DNA from: Candidatus Freyarchaeum deiterrae
GTDB taxonomy: Archaea > Asgardarchaeota > Jordiarchaeia > Jordiarchaeales > Jordiarchaeaceae
Direction of reading: 5' to 3'
DNA: 64,000 bases
Assembly (NCBI GenBank): GCA_037305845.1
Contig: CP147778.1
Span: 1,440,001 to 1,504,000, forward strand
The translations under genes were made by a program, and so were the position numbers. Each line of letters opens with the position of its first letter. Position 1 is the first letter of the stretch. Positions 11,545-43,672 of this stretch are shown here, piece by piece. The notes under the pieces are model-generated. The model did not search any database. It was not told the origin of the DNA and saw only the letters and a program-made list of their open reading frames with translations.

Positions 11545-13040
11545 TTACCCCTTTACAACACCAAGAGGACGCAAACGTGCAACCATAGACGCTATCCCCG
11601 CATCATGCGAAGCTTGCACCACTTCATCAACATTCTTGTAAGCCTCTGGGGCTTCCTCACTCACAACTTGAGCACTAGCCGCCCTAACAAAAATCCCCTT
11701 CGACAAGAGTTTGCTTTTCACACCCTCACCTGAAAAGCTCTTAATCGCCTGAGTCCTACTCATCACACGGCCGGCACCATGTGCGGTGGAGCCGAAACTA
11801 AGCTCCATTGCTTCTTTTCGTCCTCTAAGTATGTAGCTGGCGGTTCCCATGGTTCCAGGTATTATCACCGGCTGACCTATGCTTCTATATTTTTGTGGAA
11901 CTTCTGGATGGTCTGGCGGAAAGGCGCGTGTGGCTCCTTTTCTGTGTACATAAACAGAGTGAGTCTCACCGTTAACCTTGTGCTTTTCTATCTTTGCTAT
12001 GTTATGCGCCACATCGTAAATCAGATGCATATCAAGATCTTCAGCTGACCTTCCAAATACGTTTTGAAAGGATTCTCGTATCCAGTGTGTTATACTCTGT
12101 CTATTTGCCCAGGCGAAATTCGCGGAGGCAGCCATAGCCGCTAAGTAGTCTTGTCCCTCAGGACTGTTTCCAGGAGCGGCTGCTAGTTCTCTATCGGGTA
12201 AATTAATTCCGTATTTTCTTGAGGCGTTTTCCATGATTCGTAGATAGTCAGAGCAGACTTGATGTCCTAGACCCCGTGAACCCGTGTGAACCATTACGGT
12301 AACCTGATTCTCACTTAATCCTAAGACCTTGGCTGCGTCTTGATCAAAAATTTTCTCTACGTATTGAATCTCGAGAAAATGATTACCTGCCCCTAATGTT
12401 CCCACTTGGGCAACCCCTCTCTCCTTTGCTTTGCTTGACACTTTTGAAGTGTTCGCTCCCTCCAATTTTCCATTCGCTTCGCAGTTTAAAGCGTCCTCTT
12501 CCCATCCGAAACCGTTTTTAATAGACCAGCTAACGCCCTCGGAAAGAATTCCGTCCAAGTCTCTAGCTGAGAGTTTAATTTTTCTCTTAGATCCCAAACC
12601 ACTAGGCACATTATCAAACATTTCTTTTGTTAACTCTTTTATCTTGGATTCAGCGTCCTTCCTCTCAAGATTGGTTTTAATCACTCTAACACCGCAATTG
12701 ATATCATACCCAACCCCGCCGGGACTTACAACTCCGTTGTCCTCAATATCAGTAGCGGCTACTCCGCCTATTGGAAAACCGTAGCCCTGATGAGCTTCCC
12801 TCAGTAGAGGACATCCTCTCCTGAATCGGGCAGGGTTACGGAGAATTTTTTTATGCCTGGCAGGCTGCATACGTTAACGGCTTGGATTAGAGTTTGATCC
12901 TTATAAATATCTTTAAGCAATACCTCGTTTGCAATAATTCTGGCTGGAACCCTCATGTAGGGTCGATAATCTTTAGGAATCTCCCAAATGTTTTTATTAA
13001 TCTGCTTAAGAGGAATATTTCTTGTACTCAAAACAATCAC
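11545..13040 (-). CDS. rtcB: RNA-splicing ligase RtcB; two exons (13040/13031-12825 and 12795-11545), about 485 aa spliced
   Basis: Exon 1 ends ..VTLPD, exon 2 starts [11 protein letters not shown]; DINCG, GNHF, HTGSRG, HN, HRKGA, HGAGR motifs intact. Confidence 0.96.
12796..12824 (-). other. 29-nt BHB-type intron in rtcB mRNA
   Basis: CCCG AU|U CAG-G-AGAGG AUGU CCUCU-A-CUG AGGG AA|G; excision restores LPD-AHQGYG; in-frame UGA inside. Confidence 0.88.
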
Positions 13041-30515: not shown

Positions 30516-32450
30516 TTATCCCTCTAACCTTTGTTTTAATTTTTTACGAAGGAGTTCAGCCACTACTTTTCCGTCGATGTTGCCCCTAACTTTTTCCATC
30601 ACTTTACCCATCATAGGGCTAAACGCTCTTTCTCCGTTTTTTTCTATAAAGTCGCTGCTTTCATCAAGTATTTCATCGATTATTCCTTCAAGTTCCTCCG
30701 TGGTAATGGTTTCCAGTTTCAATTCTTTGAGAGCGTCCTCAACTGTAATTGAGGGAGATTTTCCAAGTACTCGAAGGACTTCCTCCACTGCCTCTTTTGC
30801 AATTTTACCTTCAGAGAGAAATTTGAAAGTCTCTTTAATTTTTTCTTGAGGTATTTCATCTGTTTGAATGTTCTCTCTATCCAGTGCTTTCATAGTTTGA
30901 AGAAGAGATACAGCAACGATCGTCGGATCTATTTTAATTTCTTTAACAATTTCCATGAAAAGCTCCATTTTTCCAGATCCCATCAATTCCTCTGCGAACA
31001 ATTCGTTTATCTTGTATTTCTTTGCCAAGCGTTTCTGAACCACCCAGGGATATTCTGGAAGGTTTTTTCTAATTGATTCTACTCTTTCTTTTTCTATAAC
31101 CAGTGGTGGCGAATCTGTATCGGGATATAGACGCGCCCCGCCATGTAACTCTCTTAAGAATTCGCTGTTGCCATTTTCTAGGGCTCTTCTGGTTTCTCTT
31201 AGTACACCCTTTAAGGCTCGCTTGGCGCGGCTAACGGCGTTATCCAATGCCTTTTGTGCTTTACTTTCATCTCCAATAACAATTGCATATGAGTCCATCT
31301 CGTCCAGAGCGAGAAAGCTTCGCAGCTTTGAATCCTCTTCCACACTGATGTTGTATTTATCAAGTTTTTCATCGGAATGGATAATGCCCTTTAGTCCGGT
31401 AATCACTGTTACTCTCTCAGCGATTTCCTTTCCAAAACTTTTTCCTGGTTGAACCTCTTTGCCTAATAATCCAGCAAATTTGGGCAGCTTTACCGACAGC
31501 ACTTTTTCTTCCTTTTTCTTATTTTTAATAATCTTGCATTTGGTAGAAGCGAAAATCTTGGAAGCATCTTTATATTCCGGTGAAAAGTCTTCTTCCTTTA
31601 CCCCTCGTTCTAATAGCTGCTTCTTAATGTCTAGTAGTGCAACTTGTCTTATTGTCTCATTTTCAGCTAGTCTAGGGATCCATTCTAACTTCTGGACTCC
31701 CTTGATTTCAACCCGCTCACCGCCCTCTATACTGACGTTAATATCCTGTCTTATGGTTCCAAGTCCCCTCTTTACCTTCTCTGTTGATCGTATAAGCATC
31801 CCTATCTTGTAAGCGGTTTTAAGAATTTCATCCGGATTTGTTATTTCCGGTAATGTAACGATTTCCACTAGGGGAATTCCCAATCTGTCTATTCTATAAT
31901 AAACTGTTTTCTCTTCTTCCCTAATTTTTCTAGCAGCATCCTCTTCTATACAAATAGTGGAGACTCCGATTTTCTTACCGTCGAGTGGTATGAAGCCGTC
32001 TGTTCCGATGATTAATGTGCGCTGAAATCCACAGGGAACTGATCCATCGAGATAGTTTTTTCGTAGGATGTGCAATTCGTCTATTACCTTTGCATTAAAC
32101 AGGAGTGAAATTTCAATACCTATGTCTATCGCTTCTTGGGAGATGTCAAAAGGAGGTGTTTGATGCTTGCAGGTGTTCTACATGCAAGTTTCATCTATCT
32201 CATATGTGCAGTTAACATCATTAAATCCTTCATATACGATAGTACGTCCTTTTTCATACTCAACTAGCATTGCTTCATCATACTTCCCCATCTCACCTAA
32301 TACTGGTCTAAAATATCTCTTAACTAGAAATTCGGGTTCATCGGTTTTTAGAATTGGCTGACAGAGACAGAATAGTTTGCGATTGGTTAGAAGCTCCTGG
32401 TGAATTTCAATTCCTGCCTTGAATCCTAGTTTTTCGTATTCTAGCTCCAA
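30516..32450 (-). CDS. gatE: Glu-tRNA(Gln) amidotransferase subunit E; two exons (32450-32190, 32159-30516), about 634 aa spliced
   Basis: Y..LG.K.GIEIHQ.L, KLFC, DE|TPP across junction, DGS...GFQRT, RGLGTIRQD, R.YP.TD. Confidence 0.95.
32160..32189 (-). other. 30-nt BHB-type intron in gatE mRNA
   Basis: GAUG AA|A CUUGCA ... UGCAAG CAUC AA|A; perfect 4-bp central helix; in-frame UAG inside. Confidence 0.9.
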
Positions 32451-32640
32451 TAGAACCGCCTCCAATTTTTTAAGGTTTCAAACACATTATCCGATGGTAA
32501 CAACAAGAACCAACACCTTTTTCTTCATAATAATATCTCTTTCTAAAAATCTTTTCTAAGGCTTACAAAAATTCAAAGTATTTATAACTATTTCATTGCC
32601 TAGTCAGCATTGTATTCTAAACTTTTAGGGGCAAAAACAC

Positions 32641-42629: not shown

Positions 42630-43672
42630 CTATTGGGTTTTTTCTTCTTTGTGTTTTTTCCATAGTGAGGGGTAGGTTCCGGGTTCCATTAGTACTCTGT
42701 CTACTTCTACTGCGATTCCGTGATTTGAAGAGTACATTTCTTCGCTGCTCATTTTTGAGCTGCCTAAAGCTACTGCTTCATTTTTGAGTGTGAAAATAGC
42801 AACAAGGTTCCTTACACCTATTTCGCTCTCTAGCTTTACTATTCCTGGGACTGTTAGGTTGGCGCCATGGCAGATAGAGTCCACGGCTGAGTCGCGTATG
42901 AATATTTTGGGTATGTGTTCTAATGCCTTTTCCATGGGTTGTATTATGTTTCTTAAGAAGGATTCATCTCCATCTTCCTTCCAAAAATGGTAAGCATCAA
43001 TAACATCATGCAGGTTTGCAAGAGTATCTTCTTTGAAAGGCCCGGTTCGGGTTCGTCTGAGTTCTTTCATATGGGCGCCGCAGCCCAAGATTTCACCAAT
43101 ATCGTGGCAGAGCTTTCTTATGTAGGTACCCGCCTCGCAACCAACGCGAAGAAGCCCGTTTCGAGCCTCCATCTCTTTTAATTCAATATAGTATATTTCC
43201 CTAATTCTAAGTCTTCTTCTAACGGAGGAGCGGAGTGGTGGGCGTTGATATATTGGCCCTACGAGCTCATTTACAACGTTCCTGAACTTCTCTTCTGGCA
43301 CGTCGCCGTGTAGTTGAATGACGCAGACGTATTCTTTCCCCGCCGGAAGAAGAGTCTGAACCACTTTGGTTGCTGATTCCAAAGCTACAGGGAGTACCCC
43401 GGTGACTTTGGGATTTCACTACTCCTCGCAAAATGCTAGAGGAGTTCTAGTGTCCCAGAGTGACCCGCCTTTTGAATATTGAGAATTTTTTTAACCCAGC
43501 TAACTACTTCATGCGAAGTTGGGCCAGGGGGCTTATCCACATTGATTATACCATTTTTTATGTATTCTTCTATTGGGCGTTGGTTGGGTGGGGTTCCATA
43601 CGTGGGGTCTGAAGTTGCTTCGGCTTTTTCAATTAATTCTCTTTTCTTGTCACTTGGTAAAAAGTGGTCCAT
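42630..43672 (-). CDS. cbf5: H/ACA pseudouridine synthase Cbf5; two exons (43672-43447, 43414-42630), 336 aa spliced
   Basis: [25 protein letters not shown] across junction, [11 protein letters not shown] domain. Confidence 0.97.
43415..43446 (-). other. 32-nt canonical BHB intron in cbf5 mRNA
   Basis: UGGGA CACU AG|A ACUCCUC...GAGGAGU AGUG AA|A UCCCA; splits the catalytic Asp codon G|AU. Confidence 0.96.

What the first reader, a model, noticed from the sequence alone, without database searches (positions are those of the whole stretch)
32160..32189. In-frame, stop-containing BHB intron in gatE
Seen: 10 extra codons including UAG split the DE-x-PP motif. Central helix GAUG/CAUC is perfect, bulges are AA|A and AA|A, inner stem CUUGCA/UGCAAG, outer helix weak. 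Excision gives IDE-TPP and a protein of about 634 aa next to gatD. Established: archaea make Gln-tRNA(Gln) through GatDE, so a true pseudogene is unlikely. Inference: Gln-tRNA supply depends on splicing.
Basis: partly seen in the sequence, partly recalled or inferred. Interest (0 to 1): 0.88.

Follow-up and report, generated by a model that had tools for sequence, protein, structure and literature searches.

The report
tRNA-type intron inside Asgard gatE
The only gene for GatE, which this Asgard archaeon needs to make glutamine-charged tRNA, is interrupted by a 30-base intron of the kind archaea cut out of tRNAs, so its mRNA very probably has to be spliced, something I found published for only one other archaeal coding region (cbf5).

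Summary
Observation confirmed. Window 32160-32189 (-) is a 30-nt insert with an in-frame UAG in the single gatE. Removing it joins GatE profile positions 88 and 90 and gives 634 aa. It forms a bulge-helix-bulge: 4-bp helix, two AA|A bulges, inner stem; the outer helix is not conserved. All 11 genomes of the class carry it at the same site (29-35 nt, three frame-shifting). Seven of 13 pairs show compensatory change and every copy has an early in-frame stop. None of 120 GatE proteins carries an insert. Read-through, pseudogene and split gene are effectively excluded. Three genomes of another class (probably Atabeyarchaeia) have an unrelated BHB intron 5 nt upstream, and their GatE is not sister (AU p 2.5e-7): two independent gains. 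The genome encodes two EndA subunits, RtcB, no GlnRS, and about 14 further BHB mRNA inserts (five exact by HMM). Dependence of Gln-tRNA on splicing follows; regulation is not shown. This scan noted the orthologous intron earlier in another Jordarchaeia genome. I found no publication.

The parts
32190..32450 (-). gatE exon 1, 87 codons from TTG (GGAGG at 32463-32459); an alternative TTG lies at 32465
   Evidence: NCBIfam GatE positions 3-88; dN/dS 0.03-0.08 against genus relatives; 634 aa after splicing
32160..32189 (-). 30-nt BHB intron, phase 0, between Glu and Thr of D-E-T-P-P
   Evidence: same site in 11/11 genomes of the class and 7 metagenome contigs
32189..32195 (-). 5' splice site: exon strand of the central helix GAUG (32195-32192) and bulge AA|A (cut between 32190 and 32189)
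   Evidence: sequence; pair counts 97.5% paired, U-A to C-G switch between the two families
32166..32188 (-). inner hairpin CUUGCA/UGCAAG, with the in-frame UAG at 32180-32178
   Evidence: 6 of 9 pairs change on both sides; stop at intron codon 4 or 5 in all 18 copies, TGA in one lineage
32159..32165 (-). 3' splice site: intron strand of the central helix CAUC (32165-32162) and bulge AA|A (cut between 32160 and 32159)
30516..32159 (-). gatE exon 2, 547 codons plus stop
   Evidence: NCBIfam GatE positions 90-628, E 5e-184; dN/dS 0.03-0.06, also low over its first 30 codons
29149..30513 (-). gatD, intact, starting 2 nt after the gatE stop (partner subunit, probably same transcript)
   Evidence: NCBIfam GatD 565 bits, cut-off 310
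12796..12824 (-). 29-nt relaxed BHB insert in rtcB, the RNA ligase expected to join the gatE exons (context)
   Evidence: Pfam RtcB match starts at model position 20 at the 3' cut; removal gives [14 protein letters not shown]
43415..43446 (-). 32-nt BHB insert in cbf5 (context)
   Evidence: found by the de novo scan; removal gives GHSGTLDPKVTG

Best explanation
A tRNA-type (bulge-helix-bulge) pre-mRNA intron. The gatE-gatD transcript folds a hairpin whose base is a 4-bp exon/intron helix between two 3-nt bulges. The two-subunit splicing endonuclease EndA cuts after the second base of each bulge, releasing 30 nt, and the RtcB ligase joins GAA to ACA, giving a 634-aa GatE. Unspliced mRNA stops after about 90 codons. 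Shown: the insert, its fold, its conservation and covariation, selection on both exons, the enzymes' genes, and the absence of a second gatE or GlnRS. Inferred: that cutting and joining happen in the cell, that EndA and RtcB do it, and that GatCAB cannot stand in. The intron was most likely gained once in the ancestor of this class and is kept because exact loss is rare in an invariant motif while splicing is efficient; the early stop probably keeps unspliced message from giving a long faulty protein.
For: HMM continuity 88|90 across the cut. Insert at the same site in 11/11 genomes of the class, lengths 30 x8, 29, 31, 35; each removal restores one long frame. 97.7% of cells paired, 7 of 13 pairs with changes on both sides, 0/500 shuffles as high, slid controls 11-52%. 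The intron changes about half as fast as third codon positions, or slower (0.07-0.37 against 0.34-0.71). dN/dS 0.03-0.08 in both exons. Two EndA genes over the Pfam cut-off and RtcB. No GlnRS, no PylRS. An unrelated BHB intron 5 nt away in another class. Five other genes of this genome show exact HMM continuity at predicted BHB cuts. Precedent: cbf5 pre-mRNA splicing by hetero-oligomeric EndA (PMC2738675).
Against: The outer exon-exon helix is missing, so the motif is of the relaxed kind. One orthologue (L011) has a mismatch in the central helix. The 11 genomes are kin, so pair counts overstate independence. No Asgard intron has been shown spliced in a cell (10.64898/2026.10.13.758758).
Confidence: 0.92

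Rival explanations
1. Translational bypass (ribosome hopping as in T4 gene 60 or mitochondrial byps, from my own knowledge): the ribosome skips the hairpin without any RNA cutting.
For: Stop codon plus hairpin plus a gap of about 30 nt resembles bypass elements; AAAC is repeated at both junctions.
Against: Take-off codon GAA would land on CAA or TAA, a first-position mismatch, and the codon after take-off is a sense codon. In the other class L036 and L073 would need GAC to re-pair with AAC, while BHB cutting gives GAC exactly. The conserved geometry is the EndA motif.
Confidence: 0.03
2. UAG read-through or recoding (pyrrolysine or suppression) gives GatE with a 10-residue insert.
For: The insert is in frame here and in 7 other genomes; a hairpin surrounds the UAG.
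Against: Orthologues of 29, 31 and 35 nt shift the frame; four have a second stop (TAA); one has TGA. No PylRS over the cut-off. 0 of 120 GatE proteins have any insert there.
Confidence: 0.01
3. gatE is a pseudogene or a split gene (two polypeptides), with GatCAB making Gln-tRNA.
For: An intact gatCAB cluster exists (G000 about 1707300-1710700); gene callers give a 519-aa ORF from TTG 32075.
Against: dN/dS 0.03-0.08 in exon 1 and 0-0.03 in the first 30 codons of exon 2, which lie almost wholly upstream of that TTG. In five genomes a stop sits directly before exon 2 in its frame. [quoted passage not shown]
Confidence: 0.02
4. The intron is spliced and is also kept as a regulator that ties GatDE output to EndA/RtcB capacity, that is to the supply of mature tRNA.
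For: Kept across both families with slow change and a fixed early stop; the same motif was hit independently in a second class; gatD follows 2 nt after the gatE stop; rtcB, cbf5 and tyrS also carry such inserts.
Against: Unrelated metabolic genes (nadE, ahcY, selD, pcm, porA) carry them too. The two classes with gatE introns are the two richest in tRNA introns, which fits general intron pressure. No condition-dependent data.
Confidence: 0.2

Closest known systems
cbf5 pre-mRNA intron of Desulfurococcales and Sulfolobales (Watanabe 2002; Yoshinari 2006; Yokobori 2009, PMC2738675)
   Same: Short insert in a conserved motif of a protein-coding gene, unconventional BHB, cuts predicted after the second bulge base, hetero-oligomeric EndA, conserved across a clade with a variable interior.
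   Different: Different gene (needed to make an aminoacyl-tRNA), different phylum, two independent gains 5 nt apart, one of about 15 such inserts in one genome; no cDNA evidence here.
BHB intron in the 5' UTR of HVO_1309, Haloferax volcanii (PMC7714728)
   Same: mRNA substrate of the tRNA splicing endonuclease.
   Different: That intron lies outside the coding region; this one interrupts the frame with a stop.
Non-canonical tRNA introns of Freyarchaeia/Jordiarchaeia and Atabeyarchaeia (PMC11291895; bioRxiv 10.64898/2026.10.13.758758)
   Same: Same two classes, same BHB motif, same picture of independent gains; (alpha beta)2 EndA.
   Different: Those papers treat tRNA genes; in the preprint 'mRNA', 'cbf5' and 'gatE' do not occur. 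The gatE intron has no close copy elsewhere in the genome (best other match 15 nt).

Membership tests
Archaeal BHB (EndA-spliced) pre-mRNA intron | 4-bp central helix between exon and intron | tested here: met
   GAUG/CAUC 4/4; 97.5% paired across orthologues with one pair changed on both sides
Archaeal BHB (EndA-spliced) pre-mRNA intron | Two 3-nt bulges on opposite strands; cutting after the second base restores the product | tested here: met
   AA|A twice, invariant in the alignment; frame and profile restored in all 11
Archaeal BHB (EndA-spliced) pre-mRNA intron | Intron-internal helix next to the motif | tested here: met
   9 pairs, 97.8% paired, 6 with changes on both sides
Archaeal BHB (EndA-spliced) pre-mRNA intron | Outer exon-exon helix (needed for the strict hBHBh' form only) | tested here: not met
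   48% paired, no covariation; so a relaxed motif. The cbf5 introns are also described as unconventional BHB.
Archaeal BHB (EndA-spliced) pre-mRNA intron | Host encodes a two-subunit EndA and an RNA ligase | tested here: met
   Two PF01974 genes of 211 and 198 aa; RtcB. Breadth of specificity not measured.
Archaeal BHB (EndA-spliced) pre-mRNA intron | Spliced mRNA seen in cells, or cleavage by EndA in vitro | not testable with these tools
GatE (Glu-tRNA(Gln) amidotransferase subunit E) | Match over the curated cut-off and gatD partner | tested here: met
   613 bits against cut-off 456; gatD adjacent; P. abyssi GatE 1zq1 E 4e-153
Pyrrolysine (UAG) recoding | PylRS in the genome and a frame-keeping UAG in orthologues | tested here: not met
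   No PylS over the cut-off; frame-shifting, TGA and double-stop orthologues
Translational bypass element | Matching take-off and landing codons with a stop or unassigned codon right after take-off | tested here: not met
   GAA against CAA or TAA; next codon is sense. Feature list from my own knowledge.
Group I / group II or other structured RNA families | Rfam match, catalytic core of 100s of nt | tested here: not met
   30 nt; no Rfam match in the window

The most novel reading that the evidence does not exclude
Some Asgard classes run a multi-gene mRNA-splicing system on the tRNA endonuclease and ligase. BHB micro-introns have invaded conserved motifs of many housekeeping genes (about 15 in this genome, a lower bound), hit gatE twice independently within 5 nt, and tend to carry early stop codons, so that core translation and metabolism depend on mRNA splicing in close prokaryotic relatives of eukaryotes.
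Probability: 0.75. Interest if true: 0.85.

Novelty: new variant of a known kind. Interest (0 to 1): 0.72.

Why it matters
Published coding-region introns cut by the archaeal tRNA endonuclease amount, as far as I could find, to one gene, cbf5 (PMC7714728 says so in 2020). Here a gene needed for Gln-tRNA carries one across a whole Asgard class, and independently in a second class. That makes gene annotation and metabolic reconstruction of these genomes wrong at such loci (split or truncated calls). It shows that protein-spliced mRNA introns can spread in a prokaryote without a spliceosome. It gives a clean test of how BHB introns arrive and why they persist, an open question for Asgard tRNAs: two gains 5 nt apart in one invariant motif, with soil metatranscriptomes from the same site already published (PMC11291895).

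Tried and rejected
A search of the protein collection for an intron-less protein of this family (as from a transcript assembly) found none among the best 120; this is weak, since such assemblies are rare. Metagenome contig L069 (no intron, 66% identity) looked like a possible spliced or intron-lost member but falls outside both families in the tree. A genome-wide intron count by de novo scan failed: loose filters give as many hits as shifted-cut controls; only the strict filter is enriched (8 against 2-4), so I give a lower bound only. The first scan timed out. No source for the intron was found in the genome. ARAGORN finds only 17 tRNA genes and Rfam nothing in the window, so a comparison with tRNA introns was not made. 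A single origin of the two gatE introns with sliding was considered and judged unlikely: no sequence likeness, different phase, GatE clades not sister (11 long or near-identical rows left out; quick tree, LG+G4). The promoter scan gave nothing above chance. Tocchini-Valentini 2011 (PMC3064391) was not held, so anything it says on mRNA introns is unchecked.

Full report
Observation. On the minus strand the frame 32465..30516 reads as GatE with one internal stop. The 30 nt at 32189..32160 encode TCM*NTCKHQ between Glu and Thr of I-D-E-T-P-P. The exon's GAUG pairs with the insert's CAUC, both bulges read AA|A, and the inner stem is CUUGCA/UGCAAG. This is the minimum-energy fold (z -2.3). Removal gives 634 aa from the TTG at 32450. 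NCBIfam GatE covers positions 3-88 in exon 1 and 90-628 in exon 2, and gatD follows directly.

Organism. The genome is one contig of 3,576,204 bases. That size matches the complete 3.58-Mbp genome of Ca. Freyarchaeum described in PMC11291895, and G021 (2,808,651 bases) matches their Atabeyarchaeia-1 (2.81 Mbp). These names are inferred from size and kinship; the handles carry none. The nearest named GatE proteins are all Asgard.

Orthologues. All 11 genomes of the class (two families) have an insert at exactly this site, and so do seven metagenome contigs, some of them the same species. Lengths are 30 in eight genomes and 29, 31 and 35 in three; each removal by the BHB rule restores one long frame. 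On the alignment 97.7% of cells pair and 7 of 13 pairs change on both sides, including the central helix (U-A in one family, C-G in the other). No shuffle reaches this and slid partners give 11-52%. Kinship inflates such counts, but pair-type counts of this size are rarely reached without structure according to the tool's trials. The outer exon-exon helix is not conserved, so the motif is a relaxed BHB. The intron changes about half as fast as third codon positions, or slower. Every copy has an in-frame stop at intron codon 4 or 5, also the frame-shifting ones, and one lineage has TGA for TAG. The other Asgard gatE loci examined, apart from the class below, show no insert at this motif, and all 120 GatE proteins retrieved have D[ED]-x-PP with one residue in between.

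Need for the product. gatE is single-copy; the only other hit is gatB in an intact gatCAB cluster. The best glnS hit is under the cut-off and is a 599-aa GluRS-type ORF. GlnRS is absent from archaea and archaeal GatCAB serves Asn-tRNA only (PMC2943598; shown in a methanogen, not in Asgard). Both exons are under strong purifying selection (dN/dS 0.03-0.08), including the first 30 codons of exon 2, which lie almost wholly upstream of the first usable start codon. In five genomes a stop stands directly before exon 2 in its frame. Pseudogene, split gene and read-through are therefore very unlikely; there is no PylRS. Ribosome bypass fails on unmatched take-off and landing codons.

Machinery. The genome has two EndA genes, consistent with the (alpha beta)2 type reported for most Asgard genomes, and the type linked to cbf5 splicing. 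RtcB lies in this window and itself holds a 29-nt relaxed BHB insert whose removal restores [14 protein letters not shown].

A second gain. Three genomes of another class (probably Atabeyarchaeia) also have a broken gatE. Their inserts are 41, 41 and 35 nt, with AGGC AG|A at the 5' site and GCC(U/C) A(G/A)|A at the 3' site, splitting the Asp codon of A-D-E-E-P-P, 5 nt upstream of the site studied here. Two metagenome contigs have 28- and 37-nt inserts at that second site. The sequences are unlike the first intron and the phase differs. In the GatE tree several well-supported branches with intron-free lineages separate the two groups, and holding them together is rejected (AU p 2.5e-7). Independent gains are the simplest reading. 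The two classes are exactly those with the heaviest tRNA intron load, which are not sister groups (10.64898/2026.10.13.758758).

Not alone in the genome. A de novo scan for BHB motifs that join broken frames is swamped by background when loose but enriched when strict (8 against 2-4 in shifted-cut controls). Profiles run on exactly across the predicted cuts in nadE (136|138), tyrS (43|45), ahcY (182|184), pcm (63|65) and selD (90|91). endoQ matches on both sides but not flush; alba, porA, an HD protein and hdrC match on one side up to or from the cut; cbf5, moaE and an OYE-like gene rest on motifs I recognised from memory. With rtcB this gives about 14 inserts besides gatE, a lower bound with uneven support. 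Seven of 8 frame-shifting inserts hold an in-frame stop against 4.7 expected (p about 0.045, post hoc, weak), and no stop-free in-frame motif was seen inside intact ORFs (0 against 3 and 1; small numbers).

Mechanism. Most likely (0.92) EndA cuts after the second base of each bulge and RtcB joins the exons; unspliced mRNA ends after about 90 codons and may also lower gatD translation (inference from the 2-nt gap). Gln-tRNA supply then depends on splicing. Whether this is regulation (about 0.2) or a tolerated intron that cannot easily be lost from an invariant motif is open; the mix of unrelated host genes favours the second.

Known and new. It works like, and on sequence criteria belongs with, the cbf5 pre-mRNA introns (PMC2738675), except that in vivo splicing is untested and the strict outer helix is absent. 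PMC7714728 lists cbf5 as the only earlier mRNA case beside its own 5' UTR intron. Eight searches of the paper library found no report of a gatE intron or of BHB introns in Asgard coding regions; the library lacks most subscription journals. This scan's own notes describe the orthologous 31-nt intron in another Jordarchaeia genome and further inserts in this genome; they are not independent evidence, and I tested what I cite. Verdict: real, a new variant of a known kind, interest 0.72.

Noticed in passing
L034:669-709, L035, L036 (G021, G031, G041); L073, L076: Second, unrelated BHB intron in gatE, 5 nt upstream of the studied site (phase 1 in the Asp codon), 41, 41, 35, 28 and 37 nt, in a non-sister Asgard class and two metagenome contigs.
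   Followed up: yes
window 12796-12824 (-): 29-nt relaxed BHB insert in rtcB; the ligase needed for splicing would need splicing itself.
   Followed up: partly
window 43415-43446 (-): 32-nt strict BHB insert in cbf5 splitting the Asp codon of TLDP; not compared with the crenarchaeal site.
   Followed up: partly
L051, L053, L054, L055, L057 (each at locus position about 901-933): BHB inserts of 29-33 nt in nadE, tyrS, ahcY, pcm and selD of this genome with exact HMM continuity across the predicted cuts.
   Followed up: yes
L047, L048, L049, L050, L052, L056, L058 (locus position about 901-939): Further BHB insert candidates of 25-39 nt in an HD protein, alba, hdrC, porA, moaE, endoQ and an OYE-like gene; support one-sided or by remembered motif.
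   Followed up: partly
genome-wide candidates: The convincing inserts found without homology fall in strongly conserved motifs (HDIGH, GKKP, YPITP, TLDP, KxxFDN), as inteins do; not tested statistically.
   Followed up: no
window 32158-32161 and 32188-32191 (-): AAAC is directly repeated at both junctions, which could be a target duplication or simply the bulge consensus; it makes the junction ambiguous by 2 nt either way.
   Followed up: no
G000 whole genome: ARAGORN finds only 17 tRNA genes, several implausible, in a complete genome, as expected if most tRNAs have several non-canonical introns.
   Followed up: no
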